Positions 10,432 to 23,119 of a stretch of DNA of 64,000 nt are shown piece after piece. Under the pieces are notes generated by a model. It was not told the origin of the DNA. It did no database searches and worked only from the letters and a program-made list of their open reading frames with translations. The stretch's first letter is position 1; each line of letters opens with the position of its first letter. Both the position numbers and the translations under genes were made by a program. Where the stretch lies: positions 8,539-72,538 of the forward strand of contig JAZQHY010000040.1 in the NCBI GenBank assembly GCA_045540815.1, read 5' to 3'. This stretch comes from Clostridia bacterium (GTDB lineage: Bacteria > Bacillota > Clostridia > UMGS1810).

Positions 10432-10460
10432 TTGAAAACAGATAGTTGATGTGATATAAT
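10432..10460 (+). promoter_or_regulatory. Consensus sigmaA promoter of the redox operon
   Basis: TTGAAA (10432-10437), 17 nt, TATAAT (10455-10460), with an upstream TG. Confidence 0.65.
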
Positions 10461-10486
10461 ATATCTCGGTTAGGATTCAAAGGAGA

Positions 10487-10504
10487 TTGTTAAAAATATA
10501 ACAA
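10487..10504 (+). promoter_or_regulatory. Candidate Rex operator
   Basis: TTGTTAAAAATATAACAA compared with the clostridial Rex consensus TTGTTAANNNNTTAACAA has one mismatch. It lies in the 5' leader just after the promoter. Confidence 0.5.
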
Positions 10505-10645
10505 AGCTTTTTGGGCGTTAACCATACAAGCGGATTTATCTGTTTGAGATTTTTTTGGTGACGAAGGGCGATGCCCGTAGGTATATCTGCATTAAAAATA
10601 AAACACAGTATGACAAACAAAAAACATTAAAAAAGGAGTAGACAA

Positions 10646-11590
10646 ATGAACAAAATCACGATTATTGGTAGCGGAAGCGTTGGTTCAACAGTAGCTTACA
10701 CTCTTACCGTAGGGGGAATTGCGTCGGAGATAGTTATTATTGATATCAACAACGAAAAAGCGCTTGGCGAAGCGCTAGATATTAGACAGGGTATCCCTTT
10801 CTATAATCCATGCCAGATTTACGCAGGAAGTTATCAGGATGCTGCAGGCTCTGATATAGTTATCGTAACATCAGGACTTCCAAGAAAAGCAGGTCAGTCA
10901 AGACTTGAGCTTGCACAGACAAATATTGATGTATTAAGAAGCATCACGCCTGAAATTACACGTTATGCACCAGACGCAGTATATCTATTTGTAAGTAATC
11001 CCGTTGATATACTTACTTACGCGTTTACAAAATGGTCAGGTATCCCAGAAAGCCGTATCATTGGTTCTGGTACAGTTTTAGATACAGCAAGACTTCGTGC
11101 AAGACTTTCTGAATATTATAAAATCAGCCAGAAAAATGTTCACGCATATGTACTAGGCGAGCATGGAGATTCTTCATTTGTTCCGTGGTCACTTGCAAAC
11201 ATTTCAAACGTGCCTATCGCAGAATGTCACAAGTGTTTCTGTGCAAAAGACAGTGTTCTCCCTGAGCTTGATTATGCTGAAACTGAAGAGTATGTAAAAA
11301 AATCAGGCGGTGTGGTAATAGAAAGAAAAGGTGCTACATTCTATGCAGTATCTATGTCAGTTGCACATATCTGTAAATGTCTTCTTAGCAGTATGGATTC
11401 TACAATGACTATATCTACTATGATGCACGGCGAGTATGGCGTGGAAGATGTATGCTTAAGTACACTTAGCACAGTAGGAAATATGGGAGTACGTGAAAAG
11501 GTTATGCTTCCTCTAAGTGATGATGAAATCAGAAAACTTCACGCTAGTGCAGATAAACTTAAAGATATTATTAAAAACGTTAATATATAA
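10646..11590 (+). CDS. L-lactate/malate dehydrogenase family enzyme, with Arg at the Q102-equivalent specificity position
   Basis: KITIIGSGSVGST Rossmann fold and GEHGDS catalytic-His motif. The loop SGLPRKAGQSRLEL aligns without gaps to the LDH loop AGANQKPGETRLDL. Confidence 0.85.
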   Translation: MNKITIIGSGSVGSTVAYTLTVGGIASEIVIIDINNEKALGEALDIRQGIPFYNPCQIYAGSYQDAAGSDIVIVTSGLPRKAGQSRLELAQTNIDVLRSITPEITRYAPDAVYLFVSNPVDILTYAFTKWSGIPESRIIGSGTVLDTARLRARLSEYYKISQKNVHAYVLGEHGDSSFVPWSLANISNVPIAECHKCFCAKDSVLPELDYAETEEYVKKSGGVVIERKGATFYAVSMSVAHICKCLLSSMDSTMTISTMMHGEYGVEDVCLSTLSTVGNMGVREKVMLPLSDDEIRKLHASADKLKDIIKNVNI

Positions 11591-11614
11591 TGAAGAAAAT
11601 TAGGAGGATGAAAA

Positions 11615-20137: not shown

Positions 20138-20151
20138 GGAGGCGGCTTAAA

Positions 20152-21747
20152 ATGTATTCAGAAAAACTAAAAGAATCTATAAAGGCGGTTGAAGCTGCCA
20201 GAGATAAAAACACTGCTTACGAGCCAGAAAGAATGACCGCTCAGCAGAAAGAAGACCTTTTAAAAGCTTATCATCCTGACTACAAGGAATCAGAATTTTC
20301 TGTGCTTGAGATAGGTCCAAACAAAGGCGATAAGGTGCCTCACGAGTTGGCCGCTATGCTACAGGCTCATTCAAGAGTTAACCCTAGTGATATCGACCTT
20401 ACAAACCCTGACTACGATGTAGACGTACTTATCATCGGCGGTGGCGGTGCGGGTTCTTCTGCAGCTATCGAGGCTCACGAGGCAGGCGCAGATGTTATGA
20501 TAGTTACAAAGCTTAGAATAGGCGATGCCAACACTATGATGGCAGAGGGCGGTATTCAGGCTGCTGATAAGGAGAACGACTCTCCTGCAATCCATTTTGT
20601 AGACGCATTCGGTGGCGGCCACTTTGCTGCAAAGAGAGAGCTTCTATCAAAGCTTGTATGCGACGCTCCTGATGCTATACTATGGCTTTCGGAGCTTGGC
20701 GTTGAATTTGATAAAGACGAAGATGGCAGAATGGTTACTACTCACGGTGGTGGTACATCTAGAAAACGTATGCACGCTGCAAAGGACTATTCAGGTGCAG
20801 AAATCATGCGTACTCTTCGTGACGAAGTATTAAACAGAAATATCCCTGTAGTTGATTTCACATCAGCTATAGAGTTAATACTTGATGAAAACGGCAACGC
20901 AGCAGGTGCGGTGCTAATGAATATGGAAACAAAGGAAATCCTAGTTGCAAAGGCTAAAACTGTTATCATCGCTACAGGCGGTGCAGGCAGAATGCACTAT
21001 CAGGGCTTCCCTACTTCAAACCATTACGGTGCTACAGCAGATGGTCTTGTACTTGGTTACAGGGCAGGTGCAAAATTACTTTATGCTGAAACACTTCAGT
21101 ATCACCCAACAGGCGCTGCATACCCTGAACAGATTTTCGGTGCGCTAGTTACTGAAAAAGTTCGTTCACTTGGTGCAAAGCTTGTAAACTCTAAGGGTGA
21201 AGTATTTATGCATCCACTAGAAACTCGTGACGTTGCTGCAGCCTCTATTATCCGTGAATGTAACGACAGAGGCAACGGCATCGAAACAGGTAACGGTCTT
21301 GGCGTATGGCTAGACACTCCAATGATTGAAAAAATTGGCGGTGAAGGTACTATTGAGGCTAGAATTCCTGCTATGATGAGAATGTTTGGTAAATACGGCA
21401 TAGATATCCGTAAAGAACCTATCCTTGTTTACCCTACACTTCACTATCAGAACGGCGGTCTTGACATAAATGCTGACTGTATGACTACAAATGTTGAAAA
21501 CCTATTTGTAGCAGGAGAGGCTGTTGGCGGTATCCACGGCAGAAACAGACTTATGGGTAACTCACTTCTTGATATCATCGTATTCGGCAGAAGCGCAGGT
21601 AAGAGTGCTGCCACTAAATGTAAAGATGTTAAGGTTGGAAAGCTTACACTTGACCACGTGAATAAATTTGAAAAGGAAATAGCTGATGCGAAATACGAAA
21701 CAAACGAAGTATCTCCTAAGCTTTTACCTGATTACACAAGAAAATAA
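20152..21747 (+). CDS. Fumarate reductase/succinate dehydrogenase-family flavoprotein, soluble type
   Basis: DVLIIGGGGAGSSAA, YHPTG, GIHGRNRLMGNSLLD. It has NTMMAEGG where covalent-FAD enzymes carry a His. Confidence 0.75.
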   Translation: MYSEKLKESIKAVEAARDKNTAYEPERMTAQQKEDLLKAYHPDYKESEFSVLEIGPNKGDKVPHELAAMLQAHSRVNPSDIDLTNPDYDVDVLIIGGGGAGSSAAIEAHEAGADVMIVTKLRIGDANTMMAEGGIQAADKENDSPAIHFVDAFGGGHFAAKRELLSKLVCDAPDAILWLSELGVEFDKDEDGRMVTTHGGGTSRKRMHAAKDYSGAEIMRTLRDEVLNRNIPVVDFTSAIELILDENGNAAGAVLMNMETKEILVAKAKTVIIATGGAGRMHYQGFPTSNHYGATADGLVLGYRAGAKLLYAETLQYHPTGAAYPEQIFGALVTEKVRSLGAKLVNSKGEVFMHPLETRDVAAASIIRECNDRGNGIETGNGLGVWLDTPMIEKIGGEGTIEARIPAMMRMFGKYGIDIRKEPILVYPTLHYQNGGLDINADCMTTNVENLFVAGEAVGGIHGRNRLMGNSLLDIIVFGRSAGKSAATKCKDVKVGKLTLDHVNKFEKEIADAKYETNEVSPKLLPDYTRK

Positions 21748-21816
21748 TAACTTATTATGGGCGGTTGGCAACAATCGCCCGTAAGTATGACAAAAAAAGA
21801 AAAGAGGTCATTTTAA

Positions 21817-23070
21817 ATGAATTTATTTGGTGGAGTTATTCCTATAACAGGAATTTCATTTTTAATGTTTTGTGTATTTGCTATTGCAGCAGTAGGTTTT
21901 GCGCTTGGCAGAATAACAATTAAAGGTGTTGCTCTTGGCGATGCAGCAGTATTTATTATGGCGCTTGTGTTCGGTGCATTTTTCTTTAAACCGCTAGAAG
22001 CACAGCTTATGGTAGACGGAACAGCATATGCTGAAAAAGCGCTTGAAATCATCGAAAATCTTGGTCTTATCCTGTTTGTAACATCTGTTGGCTTTATCGC
22101 AGGACCAAAATTCTTCGGTAATATGAAGAGAAACTTTAAGTCTTACGTATTACTAGGTCTTGTAGTTATCCTTATGGGCGGACTTGCAGCAGTAGCTTGT
22201 ATATATATGGGTGAAATATTTGGCTATGGCGCAAGCATCACAGATCAGGACGGCTTTGTAGCTATGATAGTTGGCCTTCTTTCAGGCTCACTTACATCTA
22301 CCCCTGCATTCTCTGCAGCAAAAGCTACAGTTGCTCCTGAATTTACAAGCCTTGTATCAGTTGGACACGGTATCGCGTACATATTCGGTGTAGTTGGTGT
22401 TGTACTTTTCGTTCAGATTATACCAAAGCTTACTAAAGCTGATATGGCGGCTGAAAGAGCTAAAATTACTGCAGTTGCTGACGGTTCACAGAAAAAAACA
22501 TTTGCTGGTAAACTACTTGAGCTTGACGAGCATGGCTTTGGTGCATTTGCACTTGCGGCAGTAGTTGGAACTATATTAGGTAAGATAAAAATACCTCTAA
22601 GTGCCGAAGGACTTTCTGGAACTTGCTTCTCGCTTACTACTACAGGCGGTTGCCTTTTAGCATCACTTGTATTTGGTCACTTTGGAAGAATTGGTAAGCT
22701 TTCTATTATGCCAAAAGGAAGTACTCTTAAGCTTTTCCGCGAGCTTGGACTTATGCTTTTCCTAATCGGCGCAGGTATCCCTGGCGGTGCGGACTTTGTG
22801 GCTAACTTCGACCCTATGTACTTTATCTATGGTATTATAATGACTATCGTACCTTTGGTTATTGGCTTCTTGTTTGCTAAATATGTGCTTAAGCTTAGCC
22901 TTCTTAACAACCTTGGTTCAATCACAGGTGGTATGACAAGTACACCTGCACTAGGAACTCTAATCAGTACAGCAAAAACAGAGGACGTTGCAGCAGCTTA
23001 TGCGGCTACGTACCCTATCGCACTAATCGCGGTTGTGCTTGTATCACAGTTCCTTATCATATTGTTCTAA
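21817..23070 (+). CDS. AAE (aspartate:alanine exchanger / YidE-YbjL) family transporter, short form without a central TrkA-C domain
   Basis: 417-aa polytopic protein with two similar halves. Terminal motif GSITGGMTSTPALG. Confidence 0.55.
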   Translation: MNLFGGVIPITGISFLMFCVFAIAAVGFALGRITIKGVALGDAAVFIMALVFGAFFFKPLEAQLMVDGTAYAEKALEIIENLGLILFVTSVGFIAGPKFFGNMKRNFKSYVLLGLVVILMGGLAAVACIYMGEIFGYGASITDQDGFVAMIVGLLSGSLTSTPAFSAAKATVAPEFTSLVSVGHGIAYIFGVVGVVLFVQIIPKLTKADMAAERAKITAVADGSQKKTFAGKLLELDEHGFGAFALAAVVGTILGKIKIPLSAEGLSGTCFSLTTTGGCLLASLVFGHFGRIGKLSIMPKGSTLKLFRELGLMLFLIGAGIPGGADFVANFDPMYFIYGIIMTIVPLVIGFLFAKYVLKLSLLNNLGSITGGMTSTPALGTLISTAKTEDVAAAYAATYPIALIAVVLVSQFLIILF

Positions 23071-23087
23071 TATAGATAATATATATA

Positions 23088-23119
23088 AAAAAGGATATGC
23101 ATTTGCATATCCTTTTTTA
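23088..23119 (+). terminator. Intrinsic terminator ending the redox operon
   Basis: AGGATATGC-ATTT-GCATATCCT followed by TTTTT. Confidence 0.8.

What the first reader, a model, noticed from the sequence alone, without database searches (positions are those of the whole stretch)
10432..23119. One operon joins malate/fumarate enzymes, HdrBCA-MvhD, Flx-like modules, an anchorless FrdAB-like pair and an AAE exporter: candidate soluble, possibly bifurcating, NADH:fumarate reductase
Seen in the sequence:
- A consensus promoter at 10432-10460 is followed by 11 same-strand CDS from 10646 to 21747.
- These CDS are separated by at most 24 nt or overlap (13788/13795, 16180/16189, 16605/16617, 17593/17600, 18612).
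- A transporter gene lies 69 nt further on. The first convincing terminator is only at 23088-23119.

Operon content in order:
- LDH/MDH-family dehydrogenase.
- Class II fumarase.
- HdrB, with two CCG motifs.
- HdrC, HdrA and an MvhD-like protein.
- Two poly-ferredoxin-type proteins.
- An FNR-like FAD/NAD(P) protein with a C-terminal CGVGKCGRC cluster. The sizes 331/340/277/145 aa look like FlxC/B/A/D.
- An SdhB/FrdB-like Fe-S protein.
- An SdhA/FrdA-like flavoprotein (YHPTG, HGRNRLMGNSLLD). It has NTMMAEGG where covalently flavinylated enzymes carry a His.
- No FrdC/D-type membrane anchor is present.

Established knowledge:
- FlxABCD-HdrABC of Desulfovibrio is an NADH-linked Hdr complex. Its acceptor outside sulfate reducers is unknown.
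- Methanogen thiol:fumarate reductase (TfrAB) and type-E SdhE link CCG domains to fumarate/succinate chemistry.
- The AAE family includes the Corynebacterium succinate exporter SucE.

Inference: Flx/Hdr modules pass NADH electrons to fumarate through the FrdAB-like pair, possibly co-reducing ferredoxin. This would give a quinone-independent route oxaloacetate -> malate -> fumarate -> succinate -> export.
Basis: partly seen in the sequence, partly recalled or inferred. Interest (0 to 1): 0.85.

Follow-up and report, generated by a model that had tools for sequence, protein, structure and literature searches.

The report
Flx-Hdr-linked soluble fumarate reductase operon
A gut Clostridia chromosome carries a tightly packed, widely conserved operon that probably turns oxaloacetate into exported succinate using an anchorless fumarate reductase wired to an NADH-oxidising, probably electron-bifurcating Flx-Hdr complex; the idea has been in print since 2019-2020 but has not been proven biochemically in anything I could search.

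Summary
Twelve same-strand genes run from 10646 to 23070, with gaps of at most 24 nt or overlaps (69 nt before the transporter). An extended -10 promoter lies upstream and one clean terminator downstream.

The content is as stated:
- an LDH-scaffold malate dehydrogenase (Arg at the Gln102 switch)
- FumC
- HdrB, HdrC, HdrA and MvhD
- FlxC, FlxB and FlxA
- a [2Fe-2S]+2x[4Fe-4S] FrdB-like protein
- a non-covalent-FAD FrdA-like flavoprotein
- an AAE permease

The Hdr/Flx-FrdBA array is collinear in 53 of 54 related gut/rumen Clostridia genomes.

The same 'succinate operon' and the bifurcating-fumarate-reductase idea were published for Pseudoclostridium thermosuccinogenes. Similar proposals exist for tubeworm symbionts and for archaeal MAGs. 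No enzymology turned up in the literature I could search.

Additions from this work:
- The flavoprotein belongs to a distinct cross-domain subfamily with a conserved ~90-aa N-terminal extension and no C-terminal domain.
- FrdB plus HdrB map onto consecutive parts of methanogen TfrB (a 'split Tfr').
- The FrdBA pair attaches to interchangeable input modules: Flx, Mvh hydrogenase, or a NuoF-like subunit.
- A Rex-type operator sits in the leader.

Verdict: new member of a known, still unproven, kind.

The parts
10432..10460 (+). Sigma-70-type promoter: TTGAAA, 17 nt, TG-n-TATAAT (extended -10)
   Evidence: 11/12 with TG; read directly. It lies after the tmRNA terminator at 10257-10290.
10487..10504 (+). 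Candidate Rex (NADH/NAD+-sensing repressor) operator, TTGTTAAAAATATAACAA, in the 185-nt leader
   Evidence: Only match in the 64-kb window, 1 mismatch. Sites with <=2 mismatches lie upstream of the operon in 10/48 related loci, against 0.5-0.9% in controls. The consensus is documented in PMC5367854, PMC8457756 and PMC9600882.
10646..11590 (+). Malate dehydrogenase on an LDH-type scaffold (314 aa)
   Evidence: Ldh_1_N/C. NCBIfam L-LDH models score above cutoff and MDH models below. Arg replaces LDH Gln102 and is invariant in 45/45 orthologues.
11615..12991 (+). Class II fumarate hydratase FumC (458 aa)
   Evidence: TIGR00979, 717.6 bits against a cutoff of 664.75; Lyase_1 + FumaraseC_C.
13007..13795 (+). 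HdrB-like protein with two CCG domains (262 aa)
   Evidence: PF02754 x2. Full-length alignment to methanogen HdrB 8rvv_B, E = 5e-37. Two complete CxnCCGxmCxxC sets. It scores equally on the SdhE (type E anchor) and HdrB models and maps to TfrB profile positions 262-487.
13788..14180 (+). HdrC-like 2x[4Fe-4S] protein (130 aa)
   Evidence: Fer4_8/Fer4_17; HdrC models TIGR03290 and NF041779 are the best hits.
14195..16189 (+). HdrA flavoprotein with N-terminal, inserted and C-terminal Fe-S domains (664 aa)
   Evidence: 5ODC_A, E = 2.7e-204 over residues 3-661, with all Cys motifs aligned. The HdrA2 model scores 783 bits, below its cutoff of 1100.
16180..16617 (+). MvhD/FlxD [2Fe-2S] connector (145 aa)
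   Evidence: PF02662 FlpD, E = 8.6e-56.
16605..17600 (+). FlxC-like Fe-S protein (331 aa)
   Evidence: Fer4_8/9/17 plus a weak FrhB_FdhB_C hit.
17593..18612 (+). FlxB-like Fe-S protein (340 aa from the ATG at 17593)
   Evidence: Fer4_22, E = 2.9e-30. Sulfhydrogenase beta (ShyB/HydB) and AsrA models at 1e-45 to 1e-55, all below cutoff. RBS read.
18612..19445 (+). FlxA-like NAD(P)H-binding FAD/[2Fe-2S] protein (277 aa)
   Evidence: FAD_binding_6 + NAD_binding_1 + DHODB_Fe-S_bind; HydG/AsrB-like.
19463..20137 (+). FrdB/TfrB-N-like iron-sulfur subunit (224 aa): [2Fe-2S] motif C39x4C44x2C47x14C62 plus two complete CxxCxxCxxxC motifs
   Evidence: Fer2_4, Fer2 and Fer2_3 plus a Fer4 dicluster. TfrB profile positions 19-94, E = 1.6e-10. 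Weak match to W. succinogenes FrdB. Present in 75/75 orthologous loci. Natural fusion to the flavoprotein in P0137.
20152..21747 (+). FrdA/TfrA-like flavoprotein of a distinct N-extended subfamily (531 aa): non-covalent FAD, no C-terminal domain
   Evidence: FAD_binding_2 only. The TfrA model is best at 351 bits, below its cutoff of 718. Catalytic residues conserved. AF2 pLDDT 84; top Foldseek hit is E. coli FrdA, E = 2e-30.
21817..23070 (+). AAE-family permease (417 aa), putative succinate exporter
   Evidence: PF06826 x2, E = 1.4e-55. YidE/YbjL duplication domain above cutoff. Immediately downstream in 48/74 related loci.
23092..23119 (+). Intrinsic terminator: GGATATGC-ATTT-GCATATCC followed by T6

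Best explanation
The region is one transcription unit for a quinone-independent reductive branch: oxaloacetate -> malate -> fumarate -> succinate -> export.

Proposed electron path.
1. FlxA (FAD, [2Fe-2S]) oxidises NADH.
2. Electrons pass through FlxB, FlxC and MvhD/FlxD to the FAD of HdrA.
3. At HdrA the electron pair is split.
4. One electron goes uphill to ferredoxin through the HdrA ferredoxin domains.
5. The other goes downhill through HdrC and the two non-cubane clusters of HdrB into the FrdB-like subunit, then to the non-covalent FAD of the FrdA-like subunit, which reduces fumarate.

Net reaction: 2 NADH + Fd(ox) + fumarate -> 2 NAD+ + Fd(red) + succinate.

In this reading HdrB plus FrdB together are a split version of methanogen TfrB, so no free thiol/disulfide carrier is needed. 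A Rex-type operator may tie expression to the NADH/NAD+ ratio.

Shown here: gene content, order, conservation, catalytic residues and family placement.

Inferred: that the proteins form a complex, the electron path, bifurcation, the direct HdrB-to-FrdB contact, and the transporter's substrate.
For: Operon structure.

Enzyme identities.
- MDH-type Arg102, invariant in 45/45 orthologues.
- FumC above its equivalog cutoff.
- HdrA aligns end to end with the structurally characterised bifurcating HdrA of 5ODC, with all Cys motifs.
- HdrB has both complete CCG sets.
- The flavoprotein keeps all fumarate-binding and catalytic residues, invariant across three lineages.
- Its fold is closest to E. coli FrdA.
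- Its nearest named clades are TfrA and SdhA/FrdA, not NadB.

Linkage.
- Hdr/Flx lies upstream of FrdBA in 53/54 to 69/70 loci.
- HdrC-HdrB-FrdB-FrdA, or HdrB-FrdB-FrdA, is adjacent in Asgard and other archaea alongside Mvh or HdrA/MvhD.
- There is a natural FrdB-FrdA fusion.

Split-Tfr mapping on the TfrB profile NF004898: FrdB-like at positions 19-94, HdrC at 134-220, HdrB at 262-487. The operon holds only one CCG protein, so FrdBA on its own has no thiol-oxidising domain.

Fumarate context elsewhere: fumarase and malic enzyme next to FrdBA in a Bathyarchaeota genome, and MDH next to FrdBA in a symbiont-type gammaproteobacterium.

Published support.
- The same operon in P. thermosuccinogenes is about 4-fold up-regulated under CO2 limitation, and succinate production collapses under high H2 (PMC7282089).
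- The Endoriftia Hdr-Flx cluster is co-expressed with rTCA genes, although the paper excepts tfrAB from the shared pattern (PMC11636981).

Thermodynamics (established values, from my own knowledge): E0' is about +30 mV for fumarate/succinate, -320 mV for NAD, and -400 to -500 mV for ferredoxin. That makes the coupled reaction exergonic by roughly 40 kJ/mol.
Against: - I found no enzymology for any member. A search for the phrase 'bifurcating fumarate reductase' returned 0 papers, and a 2026 review still says 'suggested'.
- One close relative (L059) has FrdBA beside a CitMHS transporter with no Hdr/Flx within 10 kb.
- Three gammaproteobacterial members pair FrdBA with a NuoF-like subunit instead of Hdr. 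So Hdr is not an obligate partner, and bifurcation is not intrinsic to the FrdBA module.
- HdrB keeps a complete heterodisulfide-type active-site Cys set, so a thiol substrate cannot be excluded.
- No ferredoxin, Rnf or hydrogenase gene is in the window to show how reduced ferredoxin would be used.
- The MDH passes the NCBIfam L-LDH cutoffs but not the MDH cutoffs.
- Orthology to the published P. thermosuccinogenes genes rests on matching gene order and number. No sequence comparison was possible.
Confidence: 0.62

Rival explanations
1. A soluble NADH:fumarate reductase that does not bifurcate. The Flx and Hdr subunits act only as an electron wire from NADH to FrdBA, ferredoxin is not reduced, and the excess free energy is dissipated.
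For: The FrdBA module also occurs with a simple NuoF-like NADH/FMN subunit and no Hdr in three Gammaproteobacteria. From my own knowledge, a non-bifurcating five-subunit NADH-fumarate reductase was purified from Hydrogenobacter thermophilus (Miura 2008); the paper could not be read. No ferredoxin-using enzyme is encoded nearby.
Against: HdrA is a complete homologue of the bifurcating subunit, with both ferredoxin domains intact. Keeping seven extra redox genes at 70-90% identity across many species is hard to explain for a plain wire. H2 inhibits succinate formation in P. thermosuccinogenes, which fits a ferredoxin link (PMC7282089).
Confidence: 0.17
2. Two enzymes joined by a diffusible thiol/disulfide, as in methanogens. 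FrdBA (with or without HdrB) oxidises a thiol pair to reduce fumarate, and Flx-HdrABC re-reduces the disulfide with NADH while bifurcating to ferredoxin.
For: The best family model for the flavoprotein is TfrA. HdrB keeps both CCG cluster sites used for heterodisulfide chemistry. Published papers word it this way: 'ferredoxin (and thiols)' in PMC7282089, and a DsrC-like carrier as one option in PMC11636981.
Against: The operon has only one CCG protein. FrdB lacks the CCG domains that TfrB uses to oxidise thiols. No DsrC-like protein or thiol-cofactor gene is in the operon or the window. From my own knowledge, Clostridia are not known to make CoM or CoB.
Confidence: 0.1
3. The flavoprotein pair acts on a different substrate (L-aspartate, as NadB does, or another enoate), or the system runs in reverse as a confurcating succinate oxidiser fed by dicarboxylate uptake through the AAE protein.
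For: All NCBIfam equivalog cutoffs are missed. Several database homologues are labelled 'L-aspartate oxidase'. NadB is structurally as close as FrdA, with TM about 0.69. AAE proteins include exchangers such as AspT.
Against: NadB models score lowest of the three groups: 271 bits against 351 for TfrA and 287 for SdhA/FrdA. None of the nearest representatives is best matched by NadB. The protein is paired with, and in one case fused to, an FrdB-type Fe-S subunit, which NadB does not have. MDH and fumarase are conserved in the operon, and fumarase or MDH also flank the pair in archaea and Gammaproteobacteria. The reverse reaction (succinate plus reduced ferredoxin giving 2 NADH) is endergonic at standard potentials.
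Confidence: 0.07
4. The genes are neighbours without functional coupling. Flx-Hdr serves another, unknown acceptor and FrdBA receives electrons from elsewhere.
For: L059 shows that FrdBA can exist without adjacent Hdr/Flx. Flx-Hdr occurs in many anaerobes without Frd (Ramos 2015, as cited in PMC7282089).
Against: Overlapping stop/start codons through the whole array. Collinearity in 53/54 genomes at 60-90% identity. HdrB-FrdB adjacency recurs independently in Archaea.
Confidence: 0.04

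Closest known systems
'Succinate operon' of Pseudoclostridium (Hungateiclostridium) thermosuccinogenes (Koendjbiharie et al. 2020, PMC7282089; Koendjbiharie & van Kranenburg 2019 preprint)
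   Same: The same order and number of genes as described in the paper: fumarate hydratase, seven Flx-Hdr genes, two fumarate reductase genes, then a hypothetical putative succinate transporter. The proposed function is also the same: fumarate reduction coupled to ferredoxin reduction through Flx-Hdr.
   Different: The window adds a malate dehydrogenase gene at the front. The host is an uncultured mesophilic gut/rumen Clostridia lineage rather than a thermophile.
FlxABCD-HdrABC of Desulfovibrio vulgaris (Ramos et al. 2015)
   Same: The same seven protein types: an FNR-like NAD(P)H/FAD/[2Fe-2S] FlxA, the Fe-S proteins FlxB and FlxC, the MvhD-like FlxD, and HdrA, HdrB and HdrC.
   Different: Gene order here is hdrBCA-flxDCBA. 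From my own knowledge, the proposed acceptor in Desulfovibrio is DsrC or a heterodisulfide linked to ethanol metabolism. Here an FrdBA pair plus MDH and fumarase are built into the operon.
Methanogen thiol:fumarate reductase TfrAB working with MvhADG-HdrABC
   Same: TfrA is the best-scoring family model for the flavoprotein. FAD is non-covalent. There is an FrdB-type [2Fe-2S]+2x[4Fe-4S] module. CCG domains are linked to fumarate reduction. A bifurcating HdrA lies upstream. Asgard relatives have Mvh-Hdr directly fused into the same gene cluster.
   Different: TfrB carries its CCG domains in the same polypeptide and uses CoM-SH and CoB-SH. Here the CCG protein is a separate HdrB and no thiol cofactor is evident. 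The flavoprotein belongs to a separate subfamily (N-terminal extension, no C-terminal domain, 351 bits against a 718-bit cutoff). The electron donor is NADH through Flx rather than H2.
Soluble five-subunit NADH-dependent fumarate reductase of Hydrogenobacter thermophilus (Miura et al. 2008; from my own knowledge, paper not readable here)
   Same: A soluble, quinone-independent, NADH-linked fumarate reductase built from FrdA and FrdB plus additional Hdr-like or NAD(P)H-binding subunits.
   Different: It has no HdrA, MvhD or Flx module and bifurcation has not been reported for it. Its subunit set is smaller and different. It works in the rTCA cycle of an aerobic or microaerobic autotroph.
Membrane quinol:fumarate reductase / succinate:quinone reductase (FrdABCD, SdhABCD; type E SdhABEF)
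   Same: The FAD and capping-domain fold and the catalytic residues. An FrdB-type Fe-S subunit. The type E enzymes also use a CCG protein (SdhE), and the window's HdrB scores on that model as well as it does on HdrB.
   Different: No membrane anchor and no quinone site. Asn replaces the His that binds FAD covalently. No Succ_DH_flav_C domain. The third cluster motif has four Cys, which predicts a [4Fe-4S] rather than a [3Fe-4S] cluster.
rTCA gene cluster of Ca. Endoriftia / Thioflavicoccus with tfrAB + flxABCD-hdrABC + korABCD (PMC6315080, PMC11636981)
   Same: The same published idea: Flx-Hdr splits NADH electrons between fumarate reductase and ferredoxin. A gammaproteobacterial sister clade of the window's flavoprotein (48% identity, same N-terminal extension) includes a tubeworm-symbiont protein.
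   Different: The three gammaproteobacterial loci I could read show FrdB-FrdA followed by a NuoF-like subunit, with no Hdr/Flx within 10 kb. It is therefore not verified that this clade is the published tfrAB.

Membership tests
FlxABCD-HdrABC NADH dehydrogenase/heterodisulfide reductase | FlxA: an FNR-like protein with FAD-binding, NAD(P)-binding and C-terminal [2Fe-2S] domains | tested here: met
   PF00970 + PF00175 + PF10418 in the product of 18612-19445.
FlxABCD-HdrABC NADH dehydrogenase/heterodisulfide reductase | FlxB and FlxC Fe-S proteins and an MvhD-like FlxD encoded next to hdrABC | tested here: met
   Fer4_22/HydB-like, Fer4_8 and FlpD proteins lie contiguous with HdrB, HdrC and HdrA.
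FlxABCD-HdrABC NADH dehydrogenase/heterodisulfide reductase | HdrA with FAD and the full set of Fe-S domains; HdrB with two CCG motifs | tested here: met
   5ODC_A, E = 2.7e-204 over the full length. Ten CCG-motif Cys.
FlxABCD-HdrABC NADH dehydrogenase/heterodisulfide reductase | NADH-dependent, ferredoxin-coupled reduction of a disulfide acceptor | not testable with these tools
   Needs enzymology.
Thiol:fumarate reductase TfrAB | TfrA equivalog model NF004900 at or above its cutoff of 718 bits | tested here: not met
   350.9 bits. It is the best model but matches only profile positions 6-429 of 546. The genuine TfrA representative P0208 scores 765.
Thiol:fumarate reductase TfrAB | TfrB: an FrdB-like N-terminus fused to two C-terminal CCG domains in one polypeptide | tested here: not met
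   The FrdB-like protein is 224 aa with no CCG domain. The CCG domains are in the separate HdrB. The pieces map to consecutive parts of the TfrB profile.
Thiol:fumarate reductase TfrAB | Uses CoM-SH and CoB-SH as electron donors | not testable with these tools
   No cofactor genes are in the window. The rest of the genome was not available.
Quinol:fumarate / succinate:quinone oxidoreductase (complex II) | Membrane anchor subunit(s) (FrdC/D, SdhC/D or SdhE/F) encoded with the A and B subunits | tested here: not met
   The AAE permease is the only protein in the array with a membrane-protein family match; none of the other eleven matches any membrane-anchor family. No transmembrane prediction was run.
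Quinol:fumarate / succinate:quinone oxidoreductase (complex II) | His for the covalent 8-alpha-FAD link, and the C-terminal Succ_DH_flav_C domain | tested here: not met
   Asn127 aligns with SdhA His45; it is Asn in 79/80 orthologues. PF02910 is not hit.
Quinol:fumarate / succinate:quinone oxidoreductase (complex II) | Catalytic residues for fumarate/succinate interconversion (E. coli SdhA H242, T254, E255, R286, H354, R399) | tested here: met
   All align and are conserved. They are invariant in the 23-sequence cross-domain alignment.
L-aspartate oxidase NadB | NadB equivalog model TIGR00551 at or above its cutoff of 452.75 bits; a stand-alone flavoprotein without an Fe-S partner | tested here: not met
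   270.6 bits. It is always paired with the FrdB-like gene, 75/75, and fused to it in P0137.
P. thermosuccinogenes-type 'succinate operon' | Fumarate hydratase + 7 Flx-Hdr genes + 2 fumarate reductase genes + a putative transporter in one cluster | tested here: met
   The gene order and count match the description in PMC7282089.
P. thermosuccinogenes-type 'succinate operon' | Sequence orthology to CDQ83_RS03315-03365 | not tested
[LDH-like] malate dehydrogenase | Arg at the position of LDH Gln102 (the substrate-specificity switch) | tested here: met
   LPRKAGQSR aligned to AAQKPGETR of LDH 4m1q. Invariant in 45/45. The NCBIfam MDH cutoffs are not reached, while the L-LDH cutoffs are.
AAE (aspartate:alanine exchanger) transporter family | Two Asp-Al_Ex permease repeats | tested here: met
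   PF06826 x2, and TIGR01625 above cutoff. No match to the full-length AspT/YidE equivalogs. The substrate was not tested.

The most novel reading that the evidence does not exclude
The FrdB plus N-extended-FrdA pair is a cross-domain, portable fumarate-reducing end module. In the Hdr-linked versions it takes electrons directly from the non-cubane clusters of HdrB, with no thiol carrier, as a 'split Tfr'.

The same end module would then be driven by interchangeable inputs:
- Flx (NADH) in gut Clostridia
- Mvh [NiFe] hydrogenase (H2) in Asgard archaea
- an FrhB-like / pyridine-nucleotide module in a second Asgard copy
- a NuoF-like subunit in sulfur-oxidising Gammaproteobacteria

If so, HdrB's CCG clusters would have a general role as an electron relay rather than only as a disulfide-reducing site. 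Fumarate would also be a widespread physiological high-potential acceptor for HdrA-based bifurcation outside methanogens and sulfate reducers.
Probability: 0.4. Interest if true: 0.7.

Novelty: new member of a known kind. Interest (0 to 1): 0.45.

Why it matters
If the mechanism is right, many uncultured gut and rumen Clostridia make succinate without quinones and still conserve energy. They would do so by using the large NADH-to-fumarate potential drop to produce reduced ferredoxin, which can then yield H2 or an Rnf-driven ion gradient. At least 594 species-level genomes encode a close relative.

This bears on three things:
- hydrogen and succinate/propionate budgets in the rumen and colon
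- the long-open question of what bacterial Flx-Hdr complexes reduce outside sulfate reducers
- bio-succinate engineering

Because the hypothesis is already in print, the value of this locus is as strong comparative support. It also offers a choice of mesophilic orthologues for the missing biochemistry, rather than being a discovery.

Tried and rejected
- L-aspartate oxidase identity for the flavoprotein: rejected. NadB models score lowest, none of the nearest representatives is best matched by NadB, and the Fe-S partner is obligatory and sometimes fused.
- L-lactate dehydrogenase identity for gene 1, which NCBIfam would assign: rejected in favour of MDH because of the invariant Arg at the Gln102 switch.
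- True TfrAB membership: rejected (cutoffs missed, no fused CCG).
- Internal terminators or separate transcripts: none found in any gap.
- A riboswitch in the 185-nt leader: Rfam finds nothing at gathering threshold.
- The strong promoter-like site at 9813 and the 'terminator' at 10010 belong to tmRNA, not to the operon.
- Equating the gammaproteobacterial sister clade with the published Endoriftia tfrAB: not supported by the three loci read, which have a NuoF-like partner and no Hdr/Flx nearby. Left open.
- Dead ends:
  - the 2019 preprint and Miura 2008 are not held
  - an exact look-up of the window's flavoprotein in the contig index found nothing
  - the structure comparison could not separate FrdA from NadB
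- FrdB-like structure prediction: not attempted. Only single-sequence input was allowed for it, and the model would have been unreliable.

Full report
OBSERVATION

The finding is accurate. Twelve + strand ORFs run from 10646 to 23070. The junctions are 24, 15, -8, 14, -10, -13, -8, -1, 17 and 14 nt, then 69 nt before the last gene.

Upstream, a tmRNA gene (9899-10247, Rfam 152 bits) ends in its own terminator at 10257-10290. Next comes TTGAAA, 17 nt, TG-n-TATAAT at 10432-10460, then a 185-nt leader and an AGGAG ribosome-binding site.

The only clean intrinsic terminator is GGATATGC-ATTT-GCATATCC followed by T6 at 23092-23119. The terminator-like hits inside the array are short stems within coding sequence. 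The FrdA-AAE gap has a GGGCG/CGCCC hairpin but no T-run.

The rest of the window is origin-proximal housekeeping and sporulation genes: yidC, mnmE, mnmG, rsmG, noc, feoB, spoIVA, spoIVB and dpaA. The host is therefore a spore-forming member of the Clostridia. The closest relatives are gut and rumen MAGs labelled Oscillospiraceae, Acutalibacteraceae, Congzhengia and Ructibacterium.

WHAT THE GENES ARE

Gene 1 (malate dehydrogenase).
- It is an LDH/MDH-family dehydrogenase whose scaffold is closer to LDH. NCBIfam L-LDH models score above cutoff and MDH models below.
- It has Arg where LDHs have Gln102, the classical switch to oxaloacetate/malate.
- That Arg is invariant in all 45 orthologues recovered. 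I read it as a malate dehydrogenase that automated annotation would mislabel.

Gene 2 is a class II fumarase, above its equivalog cutoff.

Genes 3-6 (Hdr and MvhD).
- HdrB has two complete CxnCCGxmCxxC sets.
- HdrC is a dicluster protein.
- HdrA aligns over its whole length, with every cysteine motif, to the structurally characterised bifurcating HdrA of Methanothermococcus (5ODC_A, E = 2.7e-204).
- The sixth gene encodes an MvhD/FlpD protein (E = 8.6e-56).

Genes 7-9 (Flx) are two Fe-S proteins and an FNR-like FAD/NAD(P)/[2Fe-2S] protein. They resemble sulfhydrogenase beta/gamma and AsrA/AsrB, which is the FlxC/B/A type.

Gene 10 (FrdB-like) has an FrdB/TfrB-type [2Fe-2S] motif (C39x4C44x2C47x14C62) and two complete four-Cys motifs. 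Its best family match is the N-terminal part of the TfrB profile. Similarity to solved FrdB/SdhB structures is weak.

Gene 11 (the flavoprotein).
- It matches FAD_binding_2 but not Succ_DH_flav_C.
- Against E. coli SdhA it keeps H242, T254/E255, R286, H354 and R399, and has Asn at the covalent-FAD His45.
- Its AlphaFold model (pLDDT 84, pTM 0.88) is closest to E. coli FrdA (E = 2e-30, about 450 aligned columns).
- L-aspartate oxidase is structurally nearly as close, so fold alone does not separate the two.

Gene 12 is a two-repeat AAE permease.

IS THE LINKAGE REAL?

A scan of one genome per species found at least 594 genomes with a relative of the flavoprotein. The best 80 were all Clostridia MAGs at 80-90% identity.

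Counting only loci whose contig reaches far enough:

- FrdB: 75/75
- FlxA: 69/70
- FlxB: 66/67
- FlxC: 63/64
- MvhD: 59/60
- HdrA: 54/55
- HdrC and HdrB: 53/54 each
- FumC: 49/52
- MDH: 45/52
- AAE gene immediately downstream: 48/74

The single exception for Hdr/Flx is L059 (Congzhengia sp.). There a CitMHS-type carboxylate transporter precedes FrdBA. So the Hdr/Flx-FrdBA core is the conserved unit. MDH, fumarase and the exporter are frequent accessories.

WHERE THE FLAVOPROTEIN BELONGS

The best NCBIfam model is TfrA (351 bits, cutoff 718). It is followed by SdhA/FrdA (287 bits) and NadB (271 bits, cutoff 453).

An exhaustive search of 1.84 billion cluster representatives showed a small set of full-length clusters (300-660 bits) that share the first ~90 residues. 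Below that, hits align only from residue ~89.

Of ten of the next-best representatives, all lacking the extension:
- one is a genuine TfrA (765 bits);
- two are best matched by TfrA;
- four are best matched by an actinobacterial-type SdhA/FrdA model, one of them only marginally over TfrA;
- two are ordinary SdhA/FrdA;
- one matches no model at the threshold used;
- none is best matched by NadB.

A distance tree groups the N-extended proteins together, all with Asn at the covalent-His site. This is a neighbour-joining tree without support values, so it is indicative only.

A 23-sequence alignment spanning Clostridia, Archaea and Gammaproteobacteria keeps the following invariant:
- the catalytic residues;
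- Asn127;
- a motif in the extension (H41-P42-D43 ... G55-N57-G59).

The extension is confidently folded in the model (block pLDDT 76-96). Its role is unknown.

RELATIVES ELSEWHERE

The nearest sister cluster (56% identity) is archaeal, from Bathyarchaeota and Asgard MAGs.

- Asgard MAG, first copy (L082): a 2-oxoacid:ferredoxin oxidoreductase, HdrA, MvhD, MvhG, MvhA, a maturation protease, HdrC, HdrB, FrdB, FrdA.
- Same genome, second copy (L084): HdrC, HdrB, HdrA, a 999-aa Fe-S/pyridine-nucleotide oxidoreductase, MvhD, an FrhB-like protein, FrdB, FrdA.
- Another archaeon (L085): HdrB-FrdB-FrdA, with an HdrA/MvhD fusion upstream on the opposite strand.
- A complete Bathyarchaeota genome (L081): malic enzyme, class I fumarase alpha/beta, FrdB, FrdA, with a CCG protein 7 kb away.

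A 48%-identity clade is gammaproteobacterial: sulfur oxidisers and symbionts, including a Ridgeia-symbiont protein. Three loci there show FrdB-FrdA followed by a NuoF-like NADH/FMN subunit. One of them is preceded by MDH and followed by a 2-oxoacid:ferredoxin oxidoreductase. None has Hdr within 10 kb.

One representative, P0137, is a natural FrdB-FrdA fusion.

Together these results show that FrdB plus the N-extended FrdA is a unit that recurs next to C4-dicarboxylate enzymes. It is attached to different electron-input modules in different lineages.

MECHANISM

On the 488-position TfrB profile:
- the window's FrdB-like protein covers positions 19-94;
- HdrC covers 134-220;
- HdrB covers 262-487.

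HdrB also scores as well on the SdhE (type E complex II, CCG 'anchor') model as it does on HdrB. The operon has only one CCG protein, and FrdB has none.

The simplest reading is that HdrB plus FrdB is a split TfrB. Electrons leaving the high-potential branch of HdrA would then pass HdrC -> HdrB -> FrdB -> FAD -> fumarate without a free thiol. NADH would enter at FlxA and reach HdrA through FlxB, FlxC and MvhD. The low-potential electron would go to ferredoxin.

With textbook potentials the coupled reaction is exergonic by roughly 40 kJ/mol. Fumarate (about +30 mV) is an even better high-potential acceptor than the CoM-S-S-CoB heterodisulfide (about -140 mV); these potentials are from my own knowledge.

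All of this is inference. No tool here can show complex formation or bifurcation. The NuoF-type variants and L059 show that Hdr is not an obligatory partner.

REGULATION (SIDE OBSERVATION)

The leader contains TTGTTAAAAATATAACAA at 10487-10504. This is one mismatch from the clostridial Rex operator TTGTTAANNNNTTAACAA, and it is the only match in the window at up to 2 mismatches. One match in 64 kb is itself what chance predicts (about 1.15 expected).

Sites with 2 or fewer mismatches also lie within 300 nt upstream of the operon in 10 of 48 related loci. That compares with 16 of 3200 random windows and 21 of 2400 shuffles. The consensus is documented in PMC5367854, PMC8457756 and PMC9600882.

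Redox-responsive control would fit an NADH-consuming pathway. However, most relatives lack a recognisable site.

COMPARISON WITH THE LITERATURE

Koendjbiharie et al. (PMC7282089) describe a 'succinate operon' in P. thermosuccinogenes. It holds fumarate hydratase, a seven-gene Flx-Hdr complex, a two-gene fumarate reductase and a hypothetical putative succinate transporter.
- It is about 4-fold up-regulated under CO2 limitation.
- The order and number of genes match the window, which additionally has MDH.

Rubin-Blum et al. (PMC6315080) and Mitchell et al. (PMC11636981) proposed the same coupling for tfrAB with flxABCD-hdrABC in tubeworm symbionts. A 2026 review still calls it a suggestion (PMC13147460).

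Archaeal MAG papers note thiol:fumarate reductase syntenic with Hdr-like complexes (PMC9635834, PMC9723677).

Searches for enzymology found none.

VERDICT

This locus is a new, mesophilic, gut-associated member of a known but biochemically unproven kind.

The parts that may go beyond the literature I could read are:
- the definition of the N-extended flavoprotein subfamily;
- the split-Tfr mapping, which argues for direct HdrB-to-FrdB wiring;
- the modular exchange of input modules across domains;
- the natural FrdB-FrdA fusion;
- the candidate Rex site.

Noticed in passing
window 9899-10247 (+), terminator 10257-10290: A tmRNA (ssrA) gene lies immediately upstream of the operon (Rfam RF00023, 152 bits) and has its own hairpin plus T-run terminator. 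It accounts for the 11/12 promoter-like site at 9813-9842 and the 'terminator' hit at 10010.
   Followed up: partly
window 823-919 (+): A THF (tetrahydrofolate) riboswitch (RF01831, 58 bits) lies upstream of a 255-aa ORF (988-1755) that has no Pfam match at E <= 1e-8. That ORF may be a folate-related transporter or enzyme of an undescribed family.
   Followed up: no
window 10487-10504 (+): A near-perfect Rex operator, TTGTTAAAAATATAACAA, sits in the operon leader. Similar sites are enriched 20- to 40-fold upstream of the operon in related loci, but are present in only about a fifth of them.
   Followed up: yes
window 10527-10556 (+): A weak hairpin (CAAGCGGATTTATCTGTTTG) followed by a T7 run lies inside the 185-nt leader, between the Rex-like site and the MDH start. 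It could be an attenuator. There is no Rfam match.
   Followed up: no
window 21759-21780 (+): A GGGCG...CGCCC hairpin with no T-run lies in the 69-nt FrdA-AAE gap. It may be a processing or stability element that sets the transporter's expression apart from the enzyme genes.
   Followed up: no
protein P0137 (727 aa): A natural single-chain fusion of the FrdB-like Fe-S protein (residues 1 to ~225) with the N-extended FrdA-like flavoprotein. Its taxon and gene context are unknown.
   Followed up: partly
L082 4141-4143: The Asgard HdrA gene upstream of Mvh-HdrCB-FrdBA has an in-frame TGA. After it the frame continues as normal HdrA sequence, including the C-terminal ferredoxin domain. This could be selenocysteine or stop-codon recoding (recoding is reported for some Asgard lineages, PMC9723677), or a sequencing error.
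   Followed up: partly
L083 11624-12877; L086 11631-12890; L087 11635-12891: In three Gammaproteobacteria the FrdB-FrdA pair is followed directly, overlapping or within a few nt, by a ~418-aa NuoF-like protein (Complex1_51K, SLBB, NADH_4Fe-4S). This suggests a compact three-subunit soluble NADH:fumarate reductase without Hdr.
   Followed up: partly
L059 8079-11605: A Congzhengia MAG has FrdBA directly after a CitMHS-family carboxylate transporter and no Hdr/Flx within 10 kb. It is the only exception among 54 informative loci.
   Followed up: yes
flavoprotein residues 123-134 in one of the 80 related loci (locus id not recorded): One of the 80 orthologues has His (IGDAHTMMAEGG) instead of Asn at the covalent-FAD position. 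This may be a reversion to covalent flavinylation.
   Followed up: no
proteins P0174, P0182, P0183, P0199, P0202, P0205 and others (about 400-415 aa): A group of short FrdA-like flavoproteins has neither the N-terminal extension nor the C-terminal domain, and has Asn or Lys at the covalent-His position. In the distance tree they sit between the N-extended subfamily and TfrA/SdhA. P0174 matches no NCBIfam model at E <= 1e-90.
   Followed up: no
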